A stretch of DNA of 64,000 nucleotides from a candidate division WOR-3 bacterium (GTDB taxonomy: Bacteria; Hydrothermota; Tepidihabitantia; Tepidihabitantales; Tepidihabitantaceae), in contig JAOABP010000002.1 of the NCBI GenBank assembly GCA_026418295.1, positions 26,244-90,243 on the forward strand. Direction: 5' to 3'. This document shows, one piece after another, positions 1-32,170 of the stretch (position 1 is the stretch's first letter; each line of letters opens with the position of its first letter). The position numbers and the translations under genes are program-made. A model generated the notes under the pieces. The model was not told the origin of the DNA, did not search any database, and saw only the letters and a program-made list of their open reading frames with translations.

Positions 1-1
1 A

Positions 2-1309
<1,308 letters not shown>

Positions 1310-1319
1310 GCAGGGAGTA

Positions 1320-1347
1320 TTGACATAACATATAAATCGGGTAGAAT
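1320..1347 (+). promoter_or_regulatory. sigma-70-like promoter (TTGACA-16nt-TAGAAT) upstream of tmRNA
   Basis: TTGACA at 1320-1325 and TAGAAT at 1342-1347. tmRNA 5' end lies about 30 nt downstream, consistent with a processed precursor. Confidence 0.5.
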
Positions 1348-1379
1348 TTGAATTACCTGGTTTCTCTCAGGGCATAGTC

Positions 1380-1732
1380 GGGGGCGAATGGCTTCGACGG
1401 AGTGCCTGAGGGGCTCAGGGGCATAGCGAGGCTCCTCTGTTGCCTCGTTAATACCAACAGAGGAACTACAGCTGCCAACAGCAGCTACGCACTGGCTGCC
1501 TAAAGCGAGGTAGCCCCTGGACCGGCGAGTTTCACCCGGCGCCGGCTCCGGGTCTAACAGGGTGATCAAGACCGAATCTGTGTCTCAGGGGTTCGGTCGG
1601 ATTACTAACTGAGGCTGGTCTGTCCCCGCCTGTCAGTCGGCTAAGGGACAGATGAGATAAAAAGGACTGACTAACTATGTAGAACCTGAGCTCTGAACGC
1701 TTCGGACGCGGGTTCAATTCCCGCCGCCTCCA
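1380..1732 (+). ncRNA. ssrA: tmRNA (SsrA), tag peptide ending ...ANSSYALAA*
   Basis: 5' GGGGGCGAATGGCTTCGACGG and 3' GGACGCGGGTTCAATTCCCGCCGCCTCCA closely match the E. coli ssrA termini. Acceptor stem GGGGGCG/CGCCTCC pairs. In-frame tag reading frame …GCC AAC AGC AGC TAC GCA CTG GCT GCC TAA encodes ANSSYALAA. Confidence 0.93.
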
Positions 1733-1766
1733 TGGCACAAAGAAATGCAGGTTATATAACTTACTG

Positions 1767-3497
1767 ATGGACAGTCATTTATCCCATACTCCAGGCCAGC
1801 GCGGCTACAGCCGGAAACTCGCAGAAGAGTTTTGCGCATTATCCAGACGTATTCTCCGCGAGGCGAATTCAGGTGTTCCCCGGGACGAATTTACGAGAAT
1901 GGTATTGAGTGAGTTTATTGAATTTTCCGGTTGCGATGAGGTGGAAATGAGGGTAAATGAAGGTTCAAGGTATTATCGCGGGGTCTTGAAAACCGGACCG
2001 GATGGAAAATTCCGATTCAGTCTGAAAACAAATGACTGTCCGCAGGCGCAGGAGGCATTTTCAGGGGACGAGTCAGAAGACCAGAACGTCACTAGGATGC
2101 TTCAGAAACTGGCTAGGGGCGATTACGACTCGAAGCAGCCGGGATTCACTGCTAATGGAGCTTTTCTGATTGCCAATTGTGCCACTCCTGTGATGTTTGA
2201 GGGGCGCGCGATAACAGTTCGGAGTGTGTATCAGTCGCTGGCGATTTTGCCGTTTACTATTGCGGATAACAGTCACGGACTCATTATTCTTAAGAGCCGT
2301 CAGCCCGGTTTTTTCCGGGAGCTGGAGGTGGAATTTTATCAGGGTGTAGCTCAGAGTTTAGGGGTAGCATTTGCCGACCGACGCGCACAGGCGGCTTTAC
2401 GGGAGCGGGTAAAGGAACTTACCTGCTTATATGAGCTGGATCAGGTTTTGAGCCGGGAGGAAAAGGATATCGGTGAAATCATGAAGGCGGCGGCAGAAAA
2501 ACTGCCCCCTGCATGGCTGCATTCGGATATCGCCTCTGCCTGTATTGAACTGGATGGCATAAGGTATGAGACTTCCGGCTTTAAGAATGCTGTTCACCGG
2601 CAGTCGGCAGTAATCAGGGTACACGGGGTTCCCCGTGGCAAGGTTGAAGTTGTTTACCGCGAACCCCGGCCGGTGCTGGATGAAGGTCCTTTTCTGAAGG
2701 AGGAGCGAAATCTGATTGAAGCGGTAGCCCGGGAGATCGGGTTGTTTATTGAGCGATGGGAAGCCCGAGAAGAAAAAGCCCGGTTGGAACTGCAGCTGCG
2801 TCACGCTGACCGGCTGGCCACTATTGGCCAGCTGGCAGCAGGGATTGCCCATGAGTTGAACGAACCGTTAGCCAGTATTCTCGGCTTTTCCCAGCTGCTG
2901 CAGAAGATGCCGGGTATGCCCGAGCCGGCATTGAGAGATTTGGATCGAATTGTCAAGGCAGCACTTCATGCTCGGGGGGTTATCAACAAACTGATGTTTT
3001 TTGCCCGACCGCGACCGCCACAGCAGATGTCCATTTCAGTGAATCAGCTTATTACCGAGAGTATGTATTTTGTTCAGAGTCGCTGCGCAAAAGCCGGGGT
3101 GCAGGTTGTATATGATCTTGCGCCTGATTTGCCGGAAATTCAGGCAGATCCGACACAATTGCAGCAGGTAGTAATCAATCTGGCAGTTAATGCCGTTCAG
3201 GCAATGCCTGGGGGCGGGACGCTGACTCTGGCGACAAGAAAAAAAGACGGGTTTATTGCCCTTATTGTCCAGGATACGGGTGTTGGCATGAGTGAAGAGG
3301 TTAAGGCTCAGATTTTTTTGCCCTTTTTTACGACCAAGCCGGTTGGTGAAGGGACCGGGCTCGGGTTGTCGGTTGTCCACGGAATCGTTACCGCTCATGG
3401 CGGTCGAATCAATGTTGAGTCTGCTCCCGGGAAAGGCAGCCGGTTTGAGGTGCTTTTACCTTTGCTTACACCAAAAGAACTTCAGGAGAGGAGATGA
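1767..3497 (+). CDS. cytoplasmic sensor histidine kinase (GAF-like sensor domains + HisKA + HATPase_c)
   Basis: H-box HELNEPLASILGFSQLL. ATPase N/G boxes (NLAVNAVQAM, QDTGVGM, GTGLGLSVVHGIV). No obvious TM segments. 4-nt ATGA overlap with the downstream regulator. Confidence 0.88.
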   Translation: MDSHLSHTPGQRGYSRKLAEEFCALSRRILREANSGVPRDEFTRMVLSEFIEFSGCDEVEMRVNEGSRYYRGVLKTGPDGKFRFSLKTNDCPQAQEAFSGDESEDQNVTRMLQKLARGDYDSKQPGFTANGAFLIANCATPVMFEGRAITVRSVYQSLAILPFTIADNSHGLIILKSRQPGFFRELEVEFYQGVAQSLGVAFADRRAQAALRERVKELTCLYELDQVLSREEKDIGEIMKAAAEKLPPAWLHSDIASACIELDGIRYETSGFKNAVHRQSAVIRVHGVPRGKVEVVYREPRPVLDEGPFLKEERNLIEAVAREIGLFIERWEAREEKARLELQLRHADRLATIGQLAAGIAHELNEPLASILGFSQLLQKMPGMPEPALRDLDRIVKAALHARGVINKLMFFARPRPPQQMSISVNQLITESMYFVQSRCAKAGVQVVYDLAPDLPEIQADPTQLQQVVINLAVNAVQAMPGGGTLTLATRKKDGFIALIVQDTGVGMSEEVKAQIFLPFFTTKPVGEGTGLGLSVVHGIVTAHGGRINVESAPGKGSRFEVLLPLLTPKELQERR

Positions 3498-4837
3498 GAA
3501 GGGATTACGAGGCGGTAATTCTGGTTGTTGATGATAATGCCGAGACGCTCGAAGTGCTGGAGCGTAATCTCAATGCCGCTGGTTATCAGGTGTGGACCGC
3601 CCAGAATGTCACTGATGCCGTAAAACTGCTGCAAAACGAGCACTTTGATGTTGTAATCACTGATATGAAAATGCCAGGAGCGTCGGGATTGGATCTGATA
3701 AAATATGTGCGCGAAAATTTGAACGACACTGAGGTGATGGTAATTACCGGTTATGCAACAGTGGAAAGTGCAGTGCAGGCAGTAAAGATCGGTGCTGAAG
3801 AGTATTTACCAAAGCCATTTACAGATGAGGAACTGTTGAATGCGGTGAAAAGAGTTCTGGAAAAACTCCGGATGCGGCGTGCCGCCGATGCCAGTAAGAT
3901 TACAATTCAGAAGGTTTATCCAGGACTGCTGGGTGAATCACCAGCGATGAAAAAAGTATTCAATGCGATTGAACGGGCAGCGCAGGTATCAGCCACAGTG
4001 CTGATTACCGGAGAGAGCGGTACCGGTAAGGAGCTGGTGGCACGGGCAATCCACTATGCCAGCAAAAGGGCATCAGCACCTTTTGTGCCGGTTAACTGCG
4101 GTGGAATTCCTGAGAGTCTTCTGGAGAGTGAACTGTTCGGCTATGTTAAAGGGGCTTTTACCGGCGCCACTGAGACCCGGGCGGGATTTTTCCAGACTGC
4201 AGAAGGTGGGTCAATATTTCTTGATGAAATCAGTGAGACCAGTCCTTCGATGCAGGTGAAACTGCTGCGGGTTCTTCAGGATAAAGAGGTCAGAATGCTG
4301 GGGGATTCCCGCGTTTACAGAGTGGATGTGAGGGTAATGGCAGCTACTAACAAGGATTTACTGGCATTGGTTCAAAAGGGGGCATTCCGCGAGGATCTGT
4401 TCTTTCGTTTGAATGTGCTGAATATTTCTGTTCCGCCACTCCGGGAAAGAGGGGAAGACATCTTTCTGCTTGCACGCTACTTTCTGGAGAAATTTGCCCG
4501 GGAGATGGGGCGTTCAGTCCCTCATTTCACAGATCAGGCGCTTGACGCATTCCGCCGGTATGAGTGGCCCGGTAATGTCCGGGAGCTGGAGAATCTGATA
4601 CAGCGACTACTGGTGATGGTGGATGGCGATAAGATTGATATTACTGACCTGCCGTCGCATATGCGGTTTTCAGTTGCCGCCAAGATTGATCTGACCCGGA
4701 CCTTAAAGGAAGTAGAGAGTGAATATATCCTGCAGGTGCTCAAGAGCGTTGGTGGAAATTTAACCCGCGCCGCCTCGATTCTTGGGATCGATCGTAAAAC
4801 CCTGAGAAATAAATTAAAGGAAAGCAAACCCGAATAA
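3494..4837 (+). CDS. sigma-54-dependent response regulator (NtrC/AtoC family enhancer-binding protein)
   Basis: Receiver domain (VVDDN…DVVITDMKMPG). AAA+ sigma-54 interaction domain with Walker A GESGTGKE, GAFTGA motif (KGAFTGATE) and FREDLFFRLNV. C-terminal Fis-type HTH. Confidence 0.93.
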   Translation: MRRDYEAVILVVDDNAETLEVLERNLNAAGYQVWTAQNVTDAVKLLQNEHFDVVITDMKMPGASGLDLIKYVRENLNDTEVMVITGYATVESAVQAVKIGAEEYLPKPFTDEELLNAVKRVLEKLRMRRAADASKITIQKVYPGLLGESPAMKKVFNAIERAAQVSATVLITGESGTGKELVARAIHYASKRASAPFVPVNCGGIPESLLESELFGYVKGAFTGATETRAGFFQTAEGGSIFLDEISETSPSMQVKLLRVLQDKEVRMLGDSRVYRVDVRVMAATNKDLLALVQKGAFREDLFFRLNVLNISVPPLRERGEDIFLLARYFLEKFAREMGRSVPHFTDQALDAFRRYEWPGNVRELENLIQRLLVMVDGDKIDITDLPSHMRFSVAAKIDLTRTLKEVESEYILQVLKSVGGNLTRAASILGIDRKTLRNKLKESKPE

Positions 4838-4993
4838 AACTCAGTGGGGATAATTTACCCGCCGGGAATTTTTGCCCCAAGGCTAAATTAAATCACTGCC
4901 CGGTAAAGCCATTCTAAATAAAACATCATTTTGTATCAAGCTGATAAATAACAACTTGCATGATCGATAAATTTCAGAATTTTACAGGTATGC

Positions 4994-5010
4994 CTGGCAT
5001 ACTTCGTGCA
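4994..5010 (+). promoter_or_regulatory. sigma-54 (-24/-12) promoter, TGGCAT-N7-TGCA
   Basis: cTGGCATacttcgTGCAt: GG at 4996-4997 and GC at 5008-5009, with canonical spacing relative to consensus TGGCAC-N5-TTGCW. Sits about 65 nt upstream of RBS AAAGGAGGA and the ATG at 5076. Follows an AT-rich stretch downstream of the EBP gene. Confidence 0.6.
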
Positions 5011-5075
5011 TAATACAAAAGTGCAAGTATGAGCAAACCGATGGAGAAAGGAAAACTTTAAAAAGGAGGAGCAAT

Positions 5076-5423
5076 ATGGCAGTTTCCACAAAGATTGCCA
5101 AAAAGGCAGCAAAAAAAAGCCAGCTAACGGCGCCAAAGTTCAGGAGAGCCGCAGAGGAGATGCAGGGACTGTGTATTACCTGCAATCATGCGGCGGGATG
5201 TGTCTTTCGCAAGCGCAATAAAAAACCGGTTCTGTTCTGTGAGGAGTTTGATTCCAGTGTGCCGACAGTTGAGGAGCAAATTGTGGAAGAATCATATCCT
5301 ACGGTAGAAGAGATGCGCGAATGGGATGAATTCAAAGGGCTATGTGTGAACTGTGAAAATCGTAACGATTGTATGATTCGCAACCGGGATATCGGGGTCT
5401 GGCATTGTGAGGAGTACCGGTAA
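5076..5423 (+). CDS. small Cys-rich protein with duplicated C-x2-C-x4-C-x10-11-C-EE motif and Lys-rich N-terminus (possibly DUF1540-like)
   Basis: Strong SD (AAAGGAGGA) 8 nt upstream of the ATG. Two repeats: GLCITCNHAAGCVFRKRNKKPVLFCEEF and GLCVNCENRNDCMIRNRDIGVWHCEEY. Lies 9 nt upstream of the GDH gene, so probably co-transcribed. Confidence 0.6.
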   Translation: MAVSTKIAKKAAKKSQLTAPKFRRAAEEMQGLCITCNHAAGCVFRKRNKKPVLFCEEFDSSVPTVEEQIVEESYPTVEEMREWDEFKGLCVNCENRNDCMIRNRDIGVWHCEEYR

Positions 5424-5432
5424 GGAGGACTT

Positions 5433-6755
5433 ATGGCAATAAATACCAGAAGTTCAGTCCGGATAAAACCGACATATAAGCAGACTGCTCCGGAGAAGAA
5501 ACGTCGCAGTGTATATGAAGATGTTGTAAGTCAGTTCAATCGTGCGGCAGATATCATGAATCTTGATTCCGGAGTTCGGAAAATACTGGGTACAACTATG
5601 AACGAAGTGGTCGTCCATTTTCCCGTGAAGATGGATGACGGGCGGATTGAAGTTTTCACCGGGTACCGGGTTCAGCACAACAACGCCCTTGGTCCGTTCA
5701 AGGGCGGATTGAGATACCATCCGGCGGTGGATATCGATGAGGTGCGGGCGCTGGCAACCTGGATGACTTGGAAGTCAGCAATTGTCAACATTCCATTCGG
5801 TGGCGCAAAAGGGGGAATCCAGCTGGACCCGACAAATTATTCTGTTGCCGAACTGGAACGGATTACCCGGCGATTCACATATGCGCTAGGCAATACGATT
5901 GGGCCTGATTACGACATACCTGCACCAGATGTCAACACCAATCCTCAAATCATGGCGTGGATTCTTGATACCTATCAGTCGATGATGCCCGCTTTTGAGC
6001 GTCACCGCTGTCTGGGGGTAGTTACTGGTAAGCCGATTGAATCCGGTGGCAGTGTCGGCCGGGACAAAGCGACGGGTCAGGGTGTGGTTTATCTGATTCA
6101 TGAGTGGGCAAAGGATCACAACTTTGACCTCAGCAAGGCAACCTACATCGTTCAGGGGTTTGGCAATGTTGGGTCCTGGTCAGCCCGGTTGATGAAGCCT
6201 CTGGGGGCAAAGTTGATTGCGGTTGAGGATGTTACCGGTGCGATCGCCGATCCGGAGGGAATTGATCCGGAAGATTTAACCCGTTATGTGCTGGAAAACC
6301 GCGGGGTCAAGGGATATCCCAAGGCAAAGCCGATATCTCATATTGAGTTTCTCCGCACGCGGGCTGATATCTTCATTCCTGCAGCTTTGGAGAATCAGAT
6401 TACGGCGGAAACTGCACCACTGCTCAATGTTCGTCTAGTTGCGGAAGGTGCCAACGGACCGACTGATCCGGAGGGGGATGCTATTCTCAATCAGCGGGGT
6501 ATTGATGTGCTTCCCGATATCCTCTGTAACTCCGGTGGTGTGATTGTCAGTTACTTTGAGTGGTTGCAGAATAAGCGGAGCGAATTCTGGGATCTTCAGG
6601 AGGTTGACTGCAAGCTGTACAAGAAGATTGTGGGCGGTTATCAGCGGGTCAAGGAGGCGGTGAGCAAGTACCGCGTTAACTGGCGGACAGCAGCGTATAT
6701 CGTTGCTCTGGCACGACTGGAGAAGGTGTACAAGGAAAGGGGTATTTTCCCGTAA
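5433..6755 (+). CDS. gdh: glutamate dehydrogenase, short (about 420-440 aa) Glu/Leu/Phe/Val dehydrogenase-family type
   Basis: GPFKGGLRYHP, PFGGAKGG, GNVGSW Rossmann, VAEGANGP motifs. N-terminal roughly 25-aa basic extension. Confidence 0.9.
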   Translation: MAINTRSSVRIKPTYKQTAPEKKRRSVYEDVVSQFNRAADIMNLDSGVRKILGTTMNEVVVHFPVKMDDGRIEVFTGYRVQHNNALGPFKGGLRYHPAVDIDEVRALATWMTWKSAIVNIPFGGAKGGIQLDPTNYSVAELERITRRFTYALGNTIGPDYDIPAPDVNTNPQIMAWILDTYQSMMPAFERHRCLGVVTGKPIESGGSVGRDKATGQGVVYLIHEWAKDHNFDLSKATYIVQGFGNVGSWSARLMKPLGAKLIAVEDVTGAIADPEGIDPEDLTRYVLENRGVKGYPKAKPISHIEFLRTRADIFIPAALENQITAETAPLLNVRLVAEGANGPTDPEGDAILNQRGIDVLPDILCNSGGVIVSYFEWLQNKRSEFWDLQEVDCKLYKKIVGGYQRVKEAVSKYRVNWRTAAYIVALARLEKVYKERGIFP

Positions 6756-6782
6756 TATCCTTTTCCGGCATCAGTACAGGAA

Positions 6783-6817
6783 GCGGTGCGTCCGGAATCC
6801 GGACGCACCGCTTTTTG
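6783..6817 (+). terminator. rho-independent terminator (13-bp stem GCGGTGCGTCCGG/CCGGACGCACCGC + TTTTTG)
   Basis: Perfect inverted repeat at 6783-6795 / 6799-6811 followed by a T-tract, immediately after the GDH stop. Confidence 0.8.
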
Positions 6818-6843
6818 AGTTGCGGTTGACTTGCGGTTATAAT
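6815..6843 (+). promoter_or_regulatory. sigma-70-like promoter TTGAGT-17nt-TATAAT
   Basis: -35 at 6815-6820 and perfect -10 at 6838-6843, 17 nt before the GTG start of the M23 peptidase gene. Confidence 0.5.
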
Positions 6844-6859
6844 GGGATAGAAGGATTAA

Positions 6860-7399
6860 GTGCGGTGTTTGTGCCGGTTCGGACGTGCAGTTTTCCTTCT
6901 GATTCTGCTCAGCTGCGCCTCGCTTTACACGACTCAGCCCCGTTACCGCCGGTTCCGACAGACACCGCGTCTGAAACCGGCAGTTCCTTCCCAGCCAACA
7001 CCAGCCAGACATCCGATGGATGCCTACCGGGGCAGGCTTTCCTGGCCCGTGACCGGAACGGTAATTTCCGGATTCGGACTGCAGGTAGACCCGAAATACG
7101 GCACCAAGGTGAAAAATTCCGGGATTGACATCAGCTGTGCGAAGGGCAGTCCGGTCCGGGCGGTCTGGGAAGGTACGGTCTCCTATGCGGATGTGTTCAT
7201 GGGGCAGGGGCTGATGTTGATTCTGGAACATGGCGGCGGTTATTACTCAGTTTACAGCCGGCTGAGCGAGTTCCGGGTCCGGGCAGGCGAAAAGGTGAAG
7301 ACCGGAGCGGTGCTGGGTTTAAGCGGTGAGCTGCTGCATTTTGAATTGCGGATTGGCGGGAAGGCGGTTGACCCGCTGGAATGGCTGGAAAAGAGGTAA
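6860..7399 (+). CDS. M23 family metallopeptidase (peptidoglycan DD-endopeptidase-like) with N-terminal signal/lipoprotein-like segment
   Basis: GTG start. Hydrophobic N-terminus. M23 signature GIDISCAKGSPVRAV…GYYSVYSRL…GAVLGLSGE…LHFELR. Confidence 0.85.
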   Translation: MRCLCRFGRAVFLLILLSCASLYTTQPRYRRFRQTPRLKPAVPSQPTPARHPMDAYRGRLSWPVTGTVISGFGLQVDPKYGTKVKNSGIDISCAKGSPVRAVWEGTVSYADVFMGQGLMLILEHGGGYYSVYSRLSEFRVRAGEKVKTGAVLGLSGELLHFELRIGGKAVDPLEWLEKR

Positions 7400-7401
7400 A
7401 A

Positions 7402-8352
7402 ATGGGGGCGCAGTTTTCCGGTGAAAAAATCATTGATCTGAATTTTTCCCCGCCGGACTGCCTGATCAGCTATCTTGGTGCGGTGACCGCACTCCTGCGT
7501 GCCCGGGGAATCCGGTGTGACCTGACCGATGTTGCGGGCAGGAGCGGTTATGCGTTTATTATCAATATCCATCCGGAACTTTTGCCCACCGGACCGGTGG
7601 CATTTGACTGGGAGGTGCTGATTGAGGGCACACGCGCACTCGGGGTTGAAGTTGAGCTGGTAGCGGTGGCAAGGGGAGACAATGACGAAGCCAATTTTAC
7701 CGAGCTGTTTGAACGGGTGCGCGAGGAAATTGAGGCGGGACGTCCCTGTATTGTCTGGGGTGCGGGCGAAGGACCGCAGTTCGGTCTGGTCAACGGTTAC
7801 CGGCAGGACCGCTATGTTGTTACCGGTGCGAAAGGGAGGAGGGATGAGATCAGCTATGACCAGTTAAAGGCGGTCTGGCGGATTGCAGGTATATTCGCGG
7901 GGGAGCGTTTTGAGCCTGAATGCCGGACTGAGGAGCGGAAGGCGGTGGTGCGGGCGGTGCGACTGCTGCGGGGAACCGTTGCCTGCTTTGATGCGGAGTA
8001 CTTTTCCGGTGTCCGTGCCTTTTCTGCCTGGGGTGATGCGGTGGCGCGGGGCAGGACTGATTATGAGGGGCTGATTTACAATCTGCTCTGCTATTACGAG
8101 CTCCAGCTGCTGGCAGCCGGCTTCTGCGTTCGCTTGGCAAAAAAACATCCGCAGGCAGCACCTTATCTGAAGAATGCGGCGCGGTGCTTTCAGAACTCAT
8201 TTCACAACTTGGAGCAGGCGGGAAAGCTTGCCTCCAGTCCCGCGGAAGTCAGGCAGAATTCGGAACCGATCGCAAAACTGCTGCGGGCGTGCCGGGAGCA
8301 GAATGAGCAGGCGGCAGTCGAGCTGGAGCGGGCTTTCGGGCTGATGGAATAA
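7402..8352 (+). CDS. hypothetical protein, possibly BtrH-N/C39-like papain-fold domain protein
   Basis: ATG 2 nt after the M23 stop, so likely same operon. N-terminal PDCLISYLGAVTALL resembles the catalytic-Cys region of C39/BtrH-like domains. No confident family assignment. Confidence 0.45.
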   Translation: MGAQFSGEKIIDLNFSPPDCLISYLGAVTALLRARGIRCDLTDVAGRSGYAFIINIHPELLPTGPVAFDWEVLIEGTRALGVEVELVAVARGDNDEANFTELFERVREEIEAGRPCIVWGAGEGPQFGLVNGYRQDRYVVTGAKGRRDEISYDQLKAVWRIAGIFAGERFEPECRTEERKAVVRAVRLLRGTVACFDAEYFSGVRAFSAWGDAVARGRTDYEGLIYNLLCYYELQLLAAGFCVRLAKKHPQAAPYLKNAARCFQNSFHNLEQAGKLASSPAEVRQNSEPIAKLLRACREQNEQAAVELERAFGLME

Positions 8353-29782: not shown

Positions 29783-31332
29783 TTCTGCTCCTTGTGTGCT
29801 GGGGAATTGTTTCTCAGGAACTGATTCCGGACTGGCCTGTTACTCCAGATGATGATGAAATCTATGAGCTGGTTGAAGACAGTATCGCCGGTGTTGAAAA
29901 ACTGCCGGGCGCGGGGTTGCATAATTACCGTGCAGTCTGGCGTCTGAAGACGGAATCACCTGCGGAAGTACCGTTGTCACTGGGCAGTTTTCTGCGGCTG
30001 CAACTGCAGCGGGAAAATTGTGCCGGGGTTGTTGTCATGGAAAAGGATCCCGGTGAAGCCGGCTGGGCCGATTTCTGGGGTGCTGGCTTGACATTCAGAC
30101 ATAGCCGGTGGCGTTTTACTGCCGGTGATTATATTCTGCACTTTGGCCGGGGACTGATTCTGGCTGGACCCGGGGTTCGTTCCGGTTTCGCTCAGCTGGA
30201 GACGCTCCGTAATGATGTCCTTGCCCGGTCAGCCCAGGAGAATCGTAATTGGCGCGGGCTCAGAGTTGATTACCACACTGGAGGACGGGTTTTATTTACA
30301 TTTGCCGGCAGTTACAGCCGGCGCGATGCTCAACTGAATCCGGATGGCACGGTTGCTAAACTGTTGTTTTCCGGTTATCACCGGGATTCGGCGGCTGTTG
30401 CCGCAAAGGGGAGTATCGGTCAGTTGTTAACCGGGATAATTCTGCAGCTGAAATTGAGTGATGTCTGTCGGGCAGGAGTGGCGGTGAACAGCACCCGTTA
30501 TGACCGGATGCTGGTATCAGAGGATAGTTTTTATTCATTTTCCGGACAGAATCTGGCCGCAGGCAGTGTCTTTTGTGCGCTCGGCAGCTCCCGGCGCGGC
30601 GGCGAGATTGAGTTTGCCCGTTCCATTCCCGGCGGATTTGCCGGTGCCGTCCGGGTCAATCTCTCCGAGCAGGGCTGGAATGTGGTGCTTAACGGCCTTT
30701 TAACCGGTGAGCGGTTTTTCTCACCGGCAGGACGCAGCCCCGTACTGACAAACCGGAAGGCGAGAGGTCAGCTTACCGGCCGCCTGGGCTGGAAAAACAG
30801 AGGTCTGACTCTGCAGGTGGGCGGGAATACCTATTATGACTATCTGATGGATTCGATTCCTGCCCGGCTTGAGATTGCTGCGGGATACGAGTTCGGGAGA
30901 TTTGGATTTGATATTAAAACCGCGAGAAAGTTCCGTCAGGAACAGGAACGCTTCCGTGAGACCCGCATTGAGCTGAGGTTGGAGATGCGTCAACTTGGGG
31001 TGTCTGTATACGGTGGTGATGCATATCATGATAATTCAGTTTCCTCCGCCCGCGTCGCCGGTATCAACCTGAAATTGAAGCTGAACCCGGTGGATCTGCG
31101 ACTTGCCGGTGCAATTGGTTCAGTTCGTGGCACTGGAATTGCATTTGGAGTTCCTGATCCCGGTGTGACATACACAGAGGCAAGTTATAATTTTCGTTCC
31201 TCTGCAACGAGGCTTGCACTGGCGGCGGGAATAAAGCTGGGCAGAACGGTGAGGCTGGCAATCAAGTTGGGAATGACACATTACCGATGCTGGGATCAGG
31301 ATTGGGCAATGCAGCTGGAATTACTGAATTAG
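29773..31332 (+). CDS. hypothetical protein, putative outer-membrane beta-barrel/secreted
   Basis: Overlaps the previous CDS by 10 nt. Long Gly/Arg/aromatic-rich amphipathic pattern. No recognisable family. Confidence 0.4.
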   Translation: MELILLLVCWGIVSQELIPDWPVTPDDDEIYELVEDSIAGVEKLPGAGLHNYRAVWRLKTESPAEVPLSLGSFLRLQLQRENCAGVVVMEKDPGEAGWADFWGAGLTFRHSRWRFTAGDYILHFGRGLILAGPGVRSGFAQLETLRNDVLARSAQENRNWRGLRVDYHTGGRVLFTFAGSYSRRDAQLNPDGTVAKLLFSGYHRDSAAVAAKGSIGQLLTGIILQLKLSDVCRAGVAVNSTRYDRMLVSEDSFYSFSGQNLAAGSVFCALGSSRRGGEIEFARSIPGGFAGAVRVNLSEQGWNVVLNGLLTGERFFSPAGRSPVLTNRKARGQLTGRLGWKNRGLTLQVGGNTYYDYLMDSIPARLEIAAGYEFGRFGFDIKTARKFRQEQERFRETRIELRLEMRQLGVSVYGGDAYHDNSVSSARVAGINLKLKLNPVDLRLAGAIGSVRGTGIAFGVPDPGVTYTEASYNFRSSATRLALAAGIKLGRTVRLAIKLGMTHYRCWDQDWAMQLELLN

Positions 31333-31333
31333 G

Positions 31334-32170
31334 ATGCTGGATTATCATATTCATCCCGATTTTTCCCCTGATGCACAGGGCAGTATCGAGCAGTTCTGCA
31401 GGCGAGCGGTAGCGATCGGGATGCAGGAAATCTGTTTTACCACTCATTATGAGCCGGACCCTGTAAGGGCAGGGATCGAGCGGGTCATTGTTCAGGGTAA
31501 TCCGGTGGCGGTTGATTCTGACTGGCCCGAACGCTACCTGGAGGAGATTGAACGGTGTCGCCGGCGGTTTCCAGAGTTGACAATTGTCTCGGGCGTAGAG
31601 GTTGGCTATGAACTGGGACTGGAGGGGAAAATTGCCAATTTTCTCAGCCGCTACCGGTTTGATTTTGTCCTGGGGGCAGTACACTGTCTCGATCATGTTG
31701 CGATTACATCGCGGAAGGAACTTGATGATTTCCAGAGTCATTTGAAACCCCTGGGTGCCGGATATCTTGCCCGGCGCTATTTTGAATATGTCCGGGCAGC
31801 TGCCGGTTCCCGATTGTTTGACTGCCTGGCACATCTTGATATCTGGAGAAAATATATCAGTTCCGGGATCGGCGCTGAATTTGAACCTGCGATTCAACCG
31901 TGGATCACTCCGATGCTGGAAACGATTGTCCGGAGCGGTGTGGGGCTGGAAATTAACACCTCAGCATTGCGGCGGGGAGATCGTGAACCTTATCCGGCAG
32001 CGGCGATTGTGTTGCAAGCAGTAAAGCTGGGAGTCCGGGTATTTACCATTGGTTCGGACGCGCACCGTCCGCAGGAGCTGGGCGAGGGCATAGACTGCGC
32101 TTATCAGCTGCTGAAACGTTTCGGAATGAAGCCAGCACGGTTTCGTGACCGGCGGCCAATTTGTGGTTAG
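31334..32170 (+). CDS. histidinol-phosphatase family PHP-domain protein
   Basis: MLDYHIHPDFSPDA…CFTTHYE…AHLD…GSDAHRP metal-binding His/Asp pattern of the PHP (HisJ/HisK) family. Confidence 0.75.
   Translation: MLDYHIHPDFSPDAQGSIEQFCRRAVAIGMQEICFTTHYEPDPVRAGIERVIVQGNPVAVDSDWPERYLEEIERCRRRFPELTIVSGVEVGYELGLEGKIANFLSRYRFDFVLGAVHCLDHVAITSRKELDDFQSHLKPLGAGYLARRYFEYVRAAAGSRLFDCLAHLDIWRKYISSGIGAEFEPAIQPWITPMLETIVRSGVGLEINTSALRRGDREPYPAAAIVLQAVKLGVRVFTIGSDAHRPQELGEGIDCAYQLLKRFGMKPARFRDRRPICG

What the first reader, a model, noticed from the sequence alone, without database searches (positions are those of the whole stretch)
1767..6755. Self-contained sigma-54 nitrogen module: GAF-kinase + NtrC-type activator, a -24/-12 promoter, a duplicated Cys-motif micro-protein and a second GDH
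A cytoplasmic GAF histidine kinase and a GAFTGA-containing enhancer-binding protein are translationally coupled (ATGA). About 160 nt downstream of the activator gene, an AT-rich tract ends in a well-spaced sigma-54 element (TGGCAT-N7-TGCA, 4995-5010). It is followed by a strong SD, a 115-aa Cys-rich protein, and 9 nt later a short-type glutamate dehydrogenase. The natural reading is a two-component, sigma-54-driven GDH operon. Its first cistron is an uncharacterised metal-binding protein with a histone-like Lys-rich tail, a combination I do not recognise as described. The module sits directly after a different NADP-GDH (gdhA) and tmRNA, so the cell has two structurally distinct GDHs side by side.
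Basis: partly seen in the sequence, partly recalled or inferred. Interest (0 to 1): 0.62.

Follow-up and report, generated by a model that had tools for sequence, protein, structure and literature searches.

The report
Sigma-54 glutamate dehydrogenase operon, unknown Cys-protein
A sensor kinase and its sigma-54 activator switch on a two-gene operon (an uncharacterised double four-cysteine mini-protein plus a glutamate dehydrogenase), and the same cassette, mini-protein always included, recurs in more than a dozen lineages of mostly uncultured bacteria, so the regulation is ordinary but the mini-protein is an unstudied, testable component of glutamate metabolism.

Summary
The window comes from a candidate division WOR-3 genome. 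It carries a kinase (1767-3497), a GAFTGA activator (3494-4837, ATGA overlap), a GG-N10-GC sigma-54 element (4995-5010), a 115-aa protein with eight cysteines (5076-5423), a glutamate dehydrogenase (5433-6755) and a strong terminator.

The sigma-54 site alone ranks only 8th in the window. Comparison with relatives makes it convincing. In 78 related loci the best site upstream of the small gene has a median score of 15 bits, against 3.7 in controls.

It is a 33-nt tandem palindrome (4846-4878), unique in the 64 kb and present in 65 of 65 related intergenic regions. A metagenome scan with that DNA motif alone returned 48 loci, all of them this cassette.

The small protein has no Pfam or NCBIfam model and no match to a solved structure. 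The family nevertheless holds at least 1,875 clusters. It is always next to a glutamate dehydrogenase or a NuoEF/GltB-like complex, sometimes fused to one, and sometimes it is the only regulated gene.

Its chemistry and the kinase's signal remain unknown. This is a new variant of a known kind.

The parts
1..1309 (+). gdhA-type NADP glutamate dehydrogenase, truncated at the 5' end by the window edge. It is a neighbour and not part of the regulated operon.
   Evidence: ELFV_dehydrog and ELFV_dehydrog_N domains. NF006929 scores 727 bits against a cut-off of 536. The reading frame is open to base 2. It is 33% identical to the regulated dehydrogenase. No enhancer motif occurs elsewhere in the window.
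1380..1735 (+). tmRNA (ssrA), a neighbour. The kinase gene starts 31 nt after it.
   Evidence: Rfam RF00023, 181 bits. ARAGORN finds the tag peptide ANSSYALAA.
1767..3497 (+). Cytoplasmic sensor histidine kinase. It has two weak GAF-like sensor domains followed by HisKA and HATPase_c.
   Evidence: Pfam. No transmembrane segment. The second sensor domain (ERVKELTCLY...PFLKEER) is conserved in all phyla sampled; the first is missing in short Planctomycetota homologues. The kinase lies upstream of the activator in most related loci.
3494..4837 (+). Response regulator and sigma-54 enhancer-binding protein (REC + AAA+ with GAFTGA + Fis-type HTH). Its start overlaps the kinase stop (ATGA).
   Evidence: Pfam. 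GAFTGA at 4151. Orthologues 57-79% identical lie directly upstream of the small gene in 70 of 79 genome loci. It scores below the NtrC and AtoC equivalog cut-offs.
4846..4878 (.). Candidate enhancer (UAS): two adjacent 15-bp palindromes, GGGGATAATTTACCC-GCC-GGGAATTTTTGCCCC.
   Evidence: The family consensus is GGGGAAnTTCTCCCC-Ann-GGTnCAnnnnTCCCC, 34 bits, found in 65 of 65 related intergenic regions. The window copy scores 26.7/28.6 bits and the next best site in 64 kb scores 9.0. It is present even where no activator gene is adjacent. A metagenome scan with this pattern alone gave 48 of 48 loci in this cassette. The region does not fold as a terminator hairpin (z = -1.6).
4879..4994 (.). AT-rich spacer between the enhancer and the promoter.
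   Evidence: 32% G+C against 54% for the window. No exact IHF consensus was found. A role in DNA bending is inferred.
4995..5010 (+). Sigma-54 -24/-12 promoter element TGGCAT-N5-GTGCA. The predicted start site is near 5020.
   Evidence: The sequence. PWM score 12.3 bits. GG-N10-GC is conserved in all close and distant relatives. The median best score upstream of the small gene is 15.0 bits against 3.7 in controls, and 86% of loci exceed the control 95th percentile. No sigma-70-like site on the + strand between 4837 and 5076.
5076..5423 (+). 115-aa small protein. It has a basic N-terminal tail, then two homologous four-cysteine modules (GLC-x2-C-x5-C-x11/12-CEE[FY]) joined by an acidic linker.
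   Evidence: ORF and ribosome-binding site. No Pfam or NCBIfam hit. 25 close clusters. 1,875 representative clusters at E <= 1e-3. All eight cysteines are invariant in the 111-sequence alignment. Internal duplication at hhalign 98.3%. AlphaFold pLDDT of 57 and 62. No PDB match by sequence or fold.
5433..6755 (+). Glutamate dehydrogenase of the Thermotoga/Thermococcus/RocG class, 9 nt after the small gene.
   Evidence: Pfam. Best NCBIfam match is GdhA_Arch at 475 bits, below its cut-off of 750. The nearest solved structure is T. maritima GDH 1B26 (455 bits); B. subtilis RocG 3K92 scores 346 bits. The sequence contains GPFKGGLRYH.
6777..6816 (+). Intrinsic terminator that closes the operon.
   Evidence: A 19-bp stem followed by a U-tract; free energy -36 kcal/mol, z = -9.3, none of 200 shuffles as stable. 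A sigma-70-like TTGAGT-17-TATAAT site follows at 6815-6843 for the next gene.

Best explanation
This is a dedicated two-component, sigma-54-dependent switch for the glutamate/2-oxoglutarate node.

**Proposed sequence of events**
1. The soluble kinase senses a cytoplasmic signal through its GAF-like domains. The signal is unknown.
2. The kinase phosphorylates the receiver domain of the activator.
3. The activator assembles on the tandem palindromes at 4846-4878.
4. It loops across the AT-rich spacer and uses ATP, through its GAFTGA loop, to open the sigma-54 promoter at 4995-5010.
5. One transcript starting near 5020 encodes the small double four-cysteine protein and the glutamate dehydrogenase. 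It stops at the hairpin at 6777-6816.

**Shown by sequence and comparison**
- The parts and their order.
- Their conservation across many lineages.
- The uniqueness of the enhancer in the window.

**Inferred**
- Phosphotransfer, DNA binding, looping and the start site.
- The role of the small protein, as follows.

The small protein is the one constant product of the system. The enzyme next to it varies: three classes of glutamate dehydrogenase, or a NuoE/NuoF/GltB-like complex.

My best guess (about 40%) is that it is a metal-binding (Fe-S or zinc) accessory. It would bind these oxidoreductases and tune them, possibly in response to redox state.

Whether the module serves ammonium assimilation, glutamate breakdown or redox balancing is not resolved.
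For: **Gene content**.

**Promoter**
- GG-N10-GC is kept in every related locus despite divergent flanks.
- The upstream regions of 78 loci score far above same-locus controls.
- The loci without a site directly upstream include those where a dehydrogenase gene precedes the small gene.

**Enhancer**
- A 34-bit motif is present in 65 of 65 intergenic regions and is unique in the window.
- It is present upstream of the small gene even without an adjacent activator gene.
- A motif-only metagenome scan recovered only this cassette. The small gene was next in 40 of 41 loci with enough downstream sequence.

**Activator**: orthologues are 57-79% identical across lineages.

**Operon bounds**: no + strand sigma-70-like site upstream, a 9-nt intercistronic gap, and a terminator with z = -9.3.

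**Genes after the small gene in 79 genome loci** (domains)
- NuoE/NuoF(+/-GltD)/Fer2/GltB-like complex: 46.
- Short-type glutamate dehydrogenase: 25, plus 2 behind an unknown gene.
- gdhA-type: 3.
- Large NAD-type: 2.

**Small protein acting on the enzymes**
- One Cys4 module is fused to the N-terminus of the NuoE-like subunit in four loci.
- It is fused to a glutamate dehydrogenase in one locus.
- In one lineage a three-module version is the only gene of the sigma-54 unit. It is followed by a terminator-like hairpin seen in the sequence (not folded) and a convergent dehydrogenase gene.
- Contigs with two regulated operons carry a copy at the head of each.
Against: - No transcript, binding or activity data exist for any member.
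- rpoN was not found in the 64-kb window, and the rest of the genome could not be read.
- By PWM alone the window's promoter is unremarkable (rank 8). Its -12 region is GTGCA rather than TTGCA.
- The small protein's fold could not be predicted (pLDDT 57 and 62), so metal binding rests on the cysteine pattern.
- The resemblance to Fe-S proteins with CxxCx5C (WhiB, RseC) is sub-threshold.
- The partner enzymes are structurally unrelated, which makes one shared binding mode hard to picture.
- The dehydrogenase fusion is a single metagenome contig.
- One locus (L015) has a sensory-hydrogenase-type cluster instead of a glutamate enzyme. One paralogue in L052 precedes a 494-aa protein with no known domain.
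Confidence: 0.65

Rival explanations
1. The small protein is a feedback modulator of its own signalling pair. It would work in the manner of PspA on PspF: made from the activated promoter, it binds the kinase or the activator and damps or sharpens the response.
For: It co-occurs with the kinase, activator and enhancer in nearly all loci. It is the first cistron of each regulated operon. Within-genome copies in L052 are recent duplicates that travel with the enhancer-promoter unit rather than with one enzyme type.
Against: In one lineage it is the only product of the sigma-54 unit. A system whose sole output is its own feedback regulator makes little sense. The Cys4 module is fused to enzyme subunits, and no fusion to the kinase or activator was seen.
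Confidence: 0.2
2. The small protein is a zinc-finger nucleic-acid-binding protein. Its basic tail contacts DNA or RNA, so it would be a second-tier regulator rather than an enzyme partner.
For: Basic N-terminal tails are common in the family: 8 Lys/Arg in the first 28 residues in the window, and net charge of +3 or more in 48% of members. Lys/Pro/Ala-rich tails occur in the three-module forms. Weak zinc-finger Pfam matches exist: zf-A20 in 11 members and Zn_ribbon_16 in 7.
Against: The tail is absent in many members of about 91-97 aa and is not conserved in sequence. All Pfam matches are below threshold. The enzyme fusions are not expected for a DNA-binding factor.
Confidence: 0.1
3. The small protein is an Fe-S electron carrier or assembly factor for the NuoE/NuoF/GltB-like complexes. 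In dehydrogenase-only operons such as the window's it would be a leftover.
For: It precedes the NuoE-like gene in 46 of 79 loci. One module is fused to the NuoE-like subunit in four loci. The C-x2-C-x5-C spacing is shared with the Fe-S protein WhiB (my own knowledge; weak Pfam hits).
Against: It is equally conserved, with all eight cysteines, where the only partner is an NAD(P)-dependent dehydrogenase that needs no electron carrier. It also occurs as a monocistronic unit.
Confidence: 0.1
4. The module is an Ntr-type nitrogen-status system. The kinase reads 2-oxoglutarate or glutamine and turns on ammonium assimilation into glutamate.
For: All regulated enzymes interconvert 2-oxoglutarate plus ammonium and glutamate, including complexes with glutamate-synthase-like domains. 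GAF domains can bind 2-oxoglutarate, as in NifA (my own knowledge). RpoN-dependent glutamate dehydrogenase is reported in Geobacter (PMC2725144).
Against: The activator and kinase score below the NtrC and NtrB equivalog cut-offs. The enhancer occurs only in front of these operons, so this is a local circuit and not a global one. The regulated dehydrogenase belongs to the class that includes the catabolic, sigma-54-dependent RocG (PMC10404663). In L011/L012 two amino-acid permease genes lie next to the module.
Confidence: 0.3
5. The -24/-12 match is chance. The small gene and the dehydrogenase would then be transcribed by read-through from the activator gene or from an unrecognised sigma-70 promoter.
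For: The site ranks only 8th in the window by PWM. No terminator was detected between the activator gene and the small gene.
Against: GG-N10-GC is conserved at the same place in nearly all relatives while the flanks diverge. An enhancer-like motif lies upstream of it. No + strand sigma-70-like site was found there. The adjacent gene encodes a GAFTGA activator.
Confidence: 0.03

Closest known systems
Bacillus subtilis RocR / SigL (sigma-54) control of rocG, the catabolic glutamate dehydrogenase
   Same: A sigma-54 promoter and a dedicated enhancer-binding protein drive a glutamate dehydrogenase gene (PMC10404663). The window's regulated enzyme belongs to the same dehydrogenase class as RocG (3K92, 346 bits).
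   Different: As I recall, RocR has no receiver domain and is activated directly by an effector. Here a kinase plus a receiver-domain activator is used. The enhancer lies upstream, next to the activator gene. A small Cys-rich protein is co-transcribed. As far as I know, the roc system has no counterpart of it.
NtrB/NtrC and AtoS/AtoC-type two-component sigma-54 systems
   Same: The domain architecture of both proteins is the same: HisKA/HATPase_c kinase, and REC-AAA+-Fis HTH activator with GAFTGA. Tandem dimer sites lie about 130 nt upstream of a -24/-12 promoter.
   Different: The scores are below the curated cut-offs: NtrC 441.6 against 558.6, AtoC 442 against 714, AtoS 232.8 against 646. 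The sensor is a GAF-like pair with no PAS domain. The palindrome differs (GGGGA-N5-TCCCC). The target set appears to be one or two local operons.
RpoN-dependent glutamate dehydrogenase and glutamate synthase genes of Geobacter sulfurreducens
   Same: Sigma-54 controls both routes to glutamate (PMC2725144). This parallels the dehydrogenase or glutamate-synthase-like partners seen here.
   Different: The passages of that paper that I read (term searches only) describe no dedicated kinase/activator pair, enhancer motif or small Cys-rich first cistron. I could not test whether Geobacter carries this cassette.
WhiB-like and RseC-type proteins (C-x2-C-x5-C cysteine motif)
   Same: They are small proteins with the same C-x2-C-x5-C spacing plus a fourth cysteine. 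In WhiB these bind a 4Fe-4S cluster and serve redox-responsive regulation (my own knowledge). Weak Pfam hits: RseC_MucC in 16 and Whib in 7 of 111 members.
   Different: All hits are below threshold (best E = 0.018 and 0.055). The order of the fourth cysteine differs. The module is duplicated and ends in CEE[FY]. The genomic context is different. This is a lead, not family membership.
Small protein regulators of central nitrogen or carbon enzymes (GarA/OdhI, cyanobacterial IF7/IF17, CP12)
   Same: These are short, partly disordered proteins that bind and tune glutamate- or NAD(P)H-linked enzymes. CP12 does so through redox-active cysteine pairs (my own knowledge). This matches the proposed role.
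   Different: There is no sequence relationship. The comparison is functional analogy only and was not tested here.

Membership tests
Sigma-54-dependent promoter | GG and GC doublets exactly one helical turn apart (TGGCAC-N5-TTGCW), upstream of and oriented towards the gene | tested here: met
   TGGCAT-ACTTC-GTGCA at 4995-5010, 66 nt before the ATG. PWM score 12.3 bits.
Sigma-54-dependent promoter | Conservation of the element in orthologous regions beyond chance | tested here: met
   Median best score 15.0 bits against 3.7 in controls. 86% of 78 loci exceed the control 95th percentile. GG and GC are invariant in the 70 sites scoring above 8 bits.
Sigma-54-dependent promoter | rpoN present in the genome, and the transcript start dependent on it | not testable with these tools
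   No RpoN-box ORF in the 64-kb window. The rest of the 827-kb contig could not be read, and no expression data exist.
Bacterial enhancer-binding protein (response-regulator class) | Receiver domain, AAA+ sigma-54 interaction domain with GAFTGA, and a C-terminal Fis-type HTH | tested here: met
   Response_reg 102.8 bits, Sigma54_activat 233.6 bits, HTH_8 52.2 bits. GAFTGA at 4151.
NtrC (nitrogen regulation protein NR(I)) equivalog | Score above the curated cut-off of TIGR01818 or NF008176 | tested here: not met
   441.6 bits against a cut-off of 558.6, and 364.1 against 620. AtoC also fails at 442 against 714.
Enhancer (UAS) for an NtrC-class activator | Paired palindromic sites about 100-200 bp upstream of the promoter, conserved with the activator | tested here: met
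   The 33-nt tandem palindrome at 4846-4878 lies 117 nt before the promoter element. It is found in 65 of 65 loci and is unique in the window. A motif-only scan returned only this cassette. Binding itself was not tested.
Two-component histidine kinase | HisKA phospho-acceptor domain and HATPase_c catalytic domain | tested here: met
   HisKA 44.4 bits and HATPase_c 91.6 bits. The H-box AHELNEPL is conserved.
GAF-domain sensor | Pfam GAF or GAF_2 match above the gathering score | tested here: inconclusive
   GAF_2 scores 16.5-17.3 bits against a cut-off of 28.6 in the first sensor domain. A homologue's second domain gave only E = 0.03. One database relative is named 'GAF domain-containing protein'.
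Glutamate dehydrogenase (ELFV family) | ELFV_dehydrog_N and ELFV_dehydrog domains, and closest relatives that are glutamate-specific enzymes | tested here: met
   193 and 239 bits. All top PDB relatives are glutamate dehydrogenases. GPFKGGLRYH is present in the sequence. Cofactor preference was not determined.
   No Pfam family at E <= 0.01 for the window protein. Among 111 relatives there are only sub-threshold zinc-finger hits, and DUF1540 is not among the 25 most frequent families listed.
WhiB-like Fe-S proteins | Pfam Whib match, and four cysteines binding a 4Fe-4S cluster | tested here: not met
   Whib matched 7 of 111 members at a best E of 0.018, below threshold. Cluster binding cannot be tested here.
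B. subtilis RocR-rocG system | An activator without a receiver domain, controlled directly by an effector (as I recall the RocR literature), with a monocistronic rocG target | tested here: not met
   The activator has a receiver domain and a cognate kinase. The target is bicistronic, with the small protein first.

The most novel reading that the evidence does not exclude
The double four-cysteine protein founds a new class of small Fe-S (or thiol/zinc) redox-switch proteins. It would be the true output of this sigma-54 system. By docking onto glutamate dehydrogenases and NuoE-like subunits, it would couple the cell's redox or iron-sulfur status to flux through the glutamate/2-oxoglutarate node. 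That would be a CP12- or GarA-like layer of control spread across more than a dozen, mostly uncultured, anaerobic lineages.
Probability: 0.3. Interest if true: 0.75.

Novelty: new variant of a known kind. Interest (0 to 1): 0.55.

Why it matters
Glutamate dehydrogenase sits where carbon, nitrogen and reducing power meet. In WOR-3, Zixibacteria, anaerobic Planctomycetota, Ignavibacteria and similar sediment lineages almost nothing is known about how it is controlled.

This work defines a complete regulatory unit that can be scanned for and used to annotate hundreds of genomes:
- the sensor kinase and its activator;
- a 33-nt enhancer motif;
- the sigma-54 promoter.

It also singles out a widespread protein family with no curated model (at least 1,875 clusters at 50% identity). 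That family's genomic behaviour points to a direct role at this metabolic node. The supporting observations are that it is always present, is sometimes the only regulated gene, and is sometimes fused to the enzymes.

Every step is testable with standard biochemistry. A side result is the alternative partner operon, NuoE/NuoF-GltD/ferredoxin-like/GltB-like. It looks like a glutamate-synthase-type complex, and my literature searches found no description of it.

Tried and rejected
**Structure and family searches for the small protein**
- Structure prediction gave pLDDT 57 with 25 sequences and 62 with 111 sequences. That is too poor to interpret.
- Foldseek against the PDB gave no match.
- A profile search of PDB sequences gave only a chance transferrin hit at E = 0.48.
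- Pfam and NCBIfam gave nothing for the small protein.
- Scanning all 111 relatives gave only sub-threshold, motif-driven hits to RseC_MucC, zf-A20 and Whib. I treat these as leads only.

**Promoter and enhancer**
- A PWM scan of the window alone cannot establish the promoter. It ranks 8th.
- The idea that the conserved GGGGA...TCCCC element is a terminator hairpin for the activator gene was rejected. Its folding z-score is -1.6 and it is conserved as sequence, not just as pairing.
- No IHF consensus was found in the spacer.

**Interpretations dropped**
- I first thought the regulon was a general 'NAD(P)H redox' set, because of NuoEF-type partners and one hydrogenase-type cluster. I narrowed this after finding GltB-like genes at the end of those operons and a dehydrogenase in all other loci.
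- The idea that the family is specific to WOR-3 was overturned by the profile and genome scans.

**Other searches that added little**
- A search for the kinase's second sensor domain returned mostly fragments and no named family.
- Cluster look-ups gave only 'hypothetical protein'.
- Literature searches found no description of the small protein, the enhancer motif or the cassette.
- rpoN could not be located because only 64 kb of the genome is available.

Full report
**1. What is in the window**

The region holds, all on the + strand:
- the 3' part of a gdhA-type NADP glutamate dehydrogenase, which runs off the window edge;
- a tmRNA at 1380-1735;
- a 576-aa histidine kinase at 1767-3497;
- a 447-aa response-regulator-type sigma-54 activator at 3494-4837 that overlaps the kinase stop by ATGA;
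- a 238-nt intergenic region;
- a 115-aa ORF at 5076-5423;
- 9 nt later, a 440-aa glutamate dehydrogenase at 5433-6755.

The kinase has HisKA and HATPase_c domains and no hydrophobic segment. Its GAF similarity is sub-threshold. The activator has receiver, AAA+ (GAFTGA at 4151) and Fis-type HTH domains. It scores below the curated NtrC and AtoC cut-offs.

The exact small protein is on record as a hypothetical protein of a candidate division WOR-3 MAG.

**2. The promoter**

TGGCATACTTCGTGCA at 4995-5010 has canonical GG-N10-GC spacing.

With a coarse PWM it scores 12.3 bits, only 8th in the window. All seven better sites lie inside ORFs.

The case rests on comparison. Every related locus fetched through the small protein keeps GG-N10-GC about 60-100 nt before the small gene, while the surrounding sequence diverges.

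In 78 loci from a scan of species-representative genomes, the best site in the 300 nt upstream has a median of 15.0 bits. Same-locus control segments have a median of 3.7. 86% of loci exceed the control 95th percentile. The low scorers include loci in which a dehydrogenase gene precedes the small gene, so the promoter lies further upstream.

No sigma-70-like site lies on the + strand between 4837 and 5076.

**3.

Immediately after the activator's stop codon lies GGGGATAATTTACCC-GCC-GGGAATTTTTGCCCC (4846-4878), two adjacent 15-bp palindromes.

An iteratively built matrix has the consensus GGGGAAnTTCTCCCC-Ann-GGTnCAnnnnTCCCC and 34 bits of information. It finds a site in 65 of 65 activator-to-small-gene intergenic regions. 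In the window it scores 26.7/28.6 bits, and the next best site in 64 kb scores 9.0.

The motif also sits about 300 nt upstream of the small gene in loci with no adjacent activator gene. The region does not fold better than shuffled sequence (z = -1.6), so it is a DNA site and not a terminator.

As an independent test I scanned the metagenome collection with the DNA pattern alone. All 48 hits lie in this cassette. In 40 of the 41 with enough downstream sequence, the next feature is the small gene.

The spacer between enhancer and promoter is 32% G+C, against 54% for the window.

**4. Operon bounds**

After the dehydrogenase there is a 19-bp hairpin plus U-tract (-36 kcal/mol, z = -9.3). A sigma-70-like promoter for the next gene follows. 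The unit is therefore enhancer, sigma-54 promoter, small gene, dehydrogenase, terminator.

**5. The small protein**

- It has no Pfam or NCBIfam model. It has no PDB relative by sequence or fold. Its predicted structures are poor (pLDDT 57 and 62).
- It is not a WOR-3 oddity. A profile search of 1.84 billion representatives finds 1,875 clusters at E <= 1e-3, of which 1,257 are at <= 1e-10.
- At least 567 species genomes encode a relative. By record title the lineages are WOR-3, Zixibacteria, Planctomycetota, Ignavibacteria, Desulfobacterota, Myxococcales, Verrucomicrobiota, Aminicenantes, Latescibacterota, Bacteroidales, Fibrobacterota and Omnitrophota.
- Every name on record is 'hypothetical'.
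- The anatomy is a variable, often basic tail followed by two homologous modules, GLC-x2-C-x5-C-x11/12-CEE[FY], joined by an acidic linker. All eight cysteines are invariant. The duplication is significant (hhalign 98.3%, E = 1.6e-14).
- Versions with three modules exist.
- Weak, sub-threshold Pfam hits to RseC_MucC and Whib reflect the shared C-x2-C-x5-C spacing. This suggests, but does not show, an Fe-S site.

**6. What travels with it**

The activator orthologue is 57-79% identical to the window's. It lies directly upstream in 70 of 79 genome loci, and four of the rest lack upstream sequence.

Downstream of the small gene the 79 loci carry (domains):

| Partner after the small gene | Loci |
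|---|---|
| NuoE-like / NuoF (often fused to a GltD-like domain) / 2Fe-2S+4Fe-4S protein / GltB-like gene set | 46 |
| Short-type glutamate dehydrogenase | 25 |
| Short-type dehydrogenase behind an unknown 409-aa gene | 2 |
| gdhA-type dehydrogenase | 3 |
| Large NAD-type dehydrogenase | 2 |
| Contig ends too soon | 1 |

The constant part is kinase, activator, enhancer, promoter and small protein. The variable part is always an enzyme of the glutamate/2-oxoglutarate couple. One exception is a sensory-hydrogenase-type cluster in L015.

Three further observations bear on the small protein's role:
- Single Cys4 modules are fused to the N-terminus of the NuoE-like subunit in four loci, and to a glutamate dehydrogenase in one.
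- In one lineage a three-module protein is the only gene of the sigma-54 unit. It is followed by a terminator-like hairpin seen in the sequence (not folded) and a convergent dehydrogenase gene.
- Contigs with two regulated operons have a copy at the head of each.

**7. Mechanism**

Shown: the parts, their order and their co-conservation.

Inferred from the established behaviour of NtrC-class systems:
1. The kinase autophosphorylates on its H-box histidine in response to a cytoplasmic ligand.
2. It transfers the phosphate to the receiver aspartate.
3. The activator oligomerises on the tandem palindromes and contacts sigma-54 polymerase at 4995-5010 by DNA looping.
4. ATP hydrolysis opens the promoter.

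For the small protein I favour a metal-binding accessory that acts on the neighbouring oxidoreductases (about 40%). The reasons are the fusions and the monocistronic units. The rivals are a feedback modulator of the signalling pair (about 20%), a nucleic-acid-binding zinc finger (about 10%) and an electron carrier (about 10%).

The physiological signal is open. My rough, overlapping estimates are:
- nitrogen or 2-oxoglutarate status (about 30-40%);
- amino-acid catabolism (about 30%). The regulated enzyme is in the RocG class, and permease genes adjoin the module in L011/L012;
- redox balancing (about 30%).

**8. Comparison with what is known**

Sigma-54 control of glutamate dehydrogenase has precedents:
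- B. subtilis RocR/SigL/rocG (PMC10404663);
- Bacillota in general (PMC12316311);
- Geobacter (PMC2725144).

The two regulatory proteins are standard in architecture but are not NtrBC or AtoSC by curated cut-offs.

My searches found no description of this orthologous kinase/activator pair, of its highly conserved enhancer, or of the obligatory small Cys4-repeat protein. I therefore rate the finding a new variant of a known kind, of moderate interest. The regulation is textbook. The small protein family and the cross-phylum cassette are new and testable.

**9. Limits**

- There are no expression, binding or metal data.
- rpoN was not verified for this genome.
- Gene calls in related loci are my own ORF and tblastn calls.
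- The PWM frequencies are approximate and recalled from the literature.
- The dehydrogenase fusion rests on one metagenome contig.

Noticed in passing
L043:6296-11062; L074:3157-8074; L052:6285-12285 (related loci, not the window): In 46 of 79 related loci the small gene heads an operon instead of a plain dehydrogenase. The operon encodes a NuoE-like protein, a NuoF-like protein often fused to a GltD-like NADPH domain, a 2Fe-2S/4Fe-4S protein and a GltB-like protein in which Pfam matched only the Glu_synthase region. It looks like a glutamate-synthase-type complex built on a NuoEF (Bfu/Nfn-like) core. I found no description of it in my literature searches.
   Followed up: partly
L124:4329-6915; L110:1331-3790; L135:3096-5183: A three-module version of about 225 aa, with a Lys/Pro/Ala-rich tail, is the only gene of the sigma-54 unit. 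A GC-rich hairpin follows it, then a convergently oriented glutamate dehydrogenase gene.
   Followed up: partly
L015:1-6327: This is one relative of the cassette in which the small gene is followed by a sensory [FeFe]-hydrogenase-type cluster, not a glutamate enzyme. The cluster has NuoE-like, DRTGG, HATPase_c_2, Fe_hyd_lg_C+FeS, PHP and HATPase_c genes.
   Followed up: partly
L052:3361-5637: A second enhancer plus a small-protein paralogue precedes a 494-aa protein with no Pfam match. This may be a further, unknown member of the regulon.
   Followed up: no
window 1320-1767: The kinase gene starts only 31 nt after the tmRNA. The scan found no sigma-70-like promoter or terminator between them. 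The only strong sigma-70-like site nearby (TTGACA-16-TAGAAT, 1320-1347) is upstream of the tmRNA. The kinase/activator genes may therefore be read through from ssrA.
   Followed up: no
window 31128-31143 (+): The best sigma-54 PWM match in the window (TGGCACTGGAATTGCA, 18 bits) lies inside the 3' end of a 519-aa ORF with no Pfam match. It is about 200 nt before a PHP-domain gene (31334-32170). No activator gene or enhancer motif is nearby.
   Followed up: partly
window 1-64000; L002, L004, L007 positions 1-3240: The + strand has a strong excess of G over C (30.4% against 23.6%). In syntenic relatives dnaN lies just upstream of the gdhA-type gene. The window probably starts close to the replication origin, on the leading strand.
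   Followed up: no
window 7381-8352 (+) and 6860-7399 (+): A 323-aa ORF with no Pfam match overlaps the end of an M23 peptidase gene by 19 nt. The pair is conserved downstream of the operon in close relatives (L001).
   Followed up: no
L073:6283-7512; L087:6265-7494: In a second WOR-3 lineage, a 409-aa protein with no Pfam match sits between the small gene and a shorter dehydrogenase-like gene of about 404 aa. A GltD-like gene lies upstream of the kinase.
   Followed up: no
window 2364-2771 (kinase residues 200-335): The conserved second sensor domain (ERVKELTCLY...PFLKEER) has no Pfam model. It also turns up in short stand-alone proteins and in proteins with AraC-type or GGDEF domains, including one labelled Bathyarchaeota.
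   Followed up: partly
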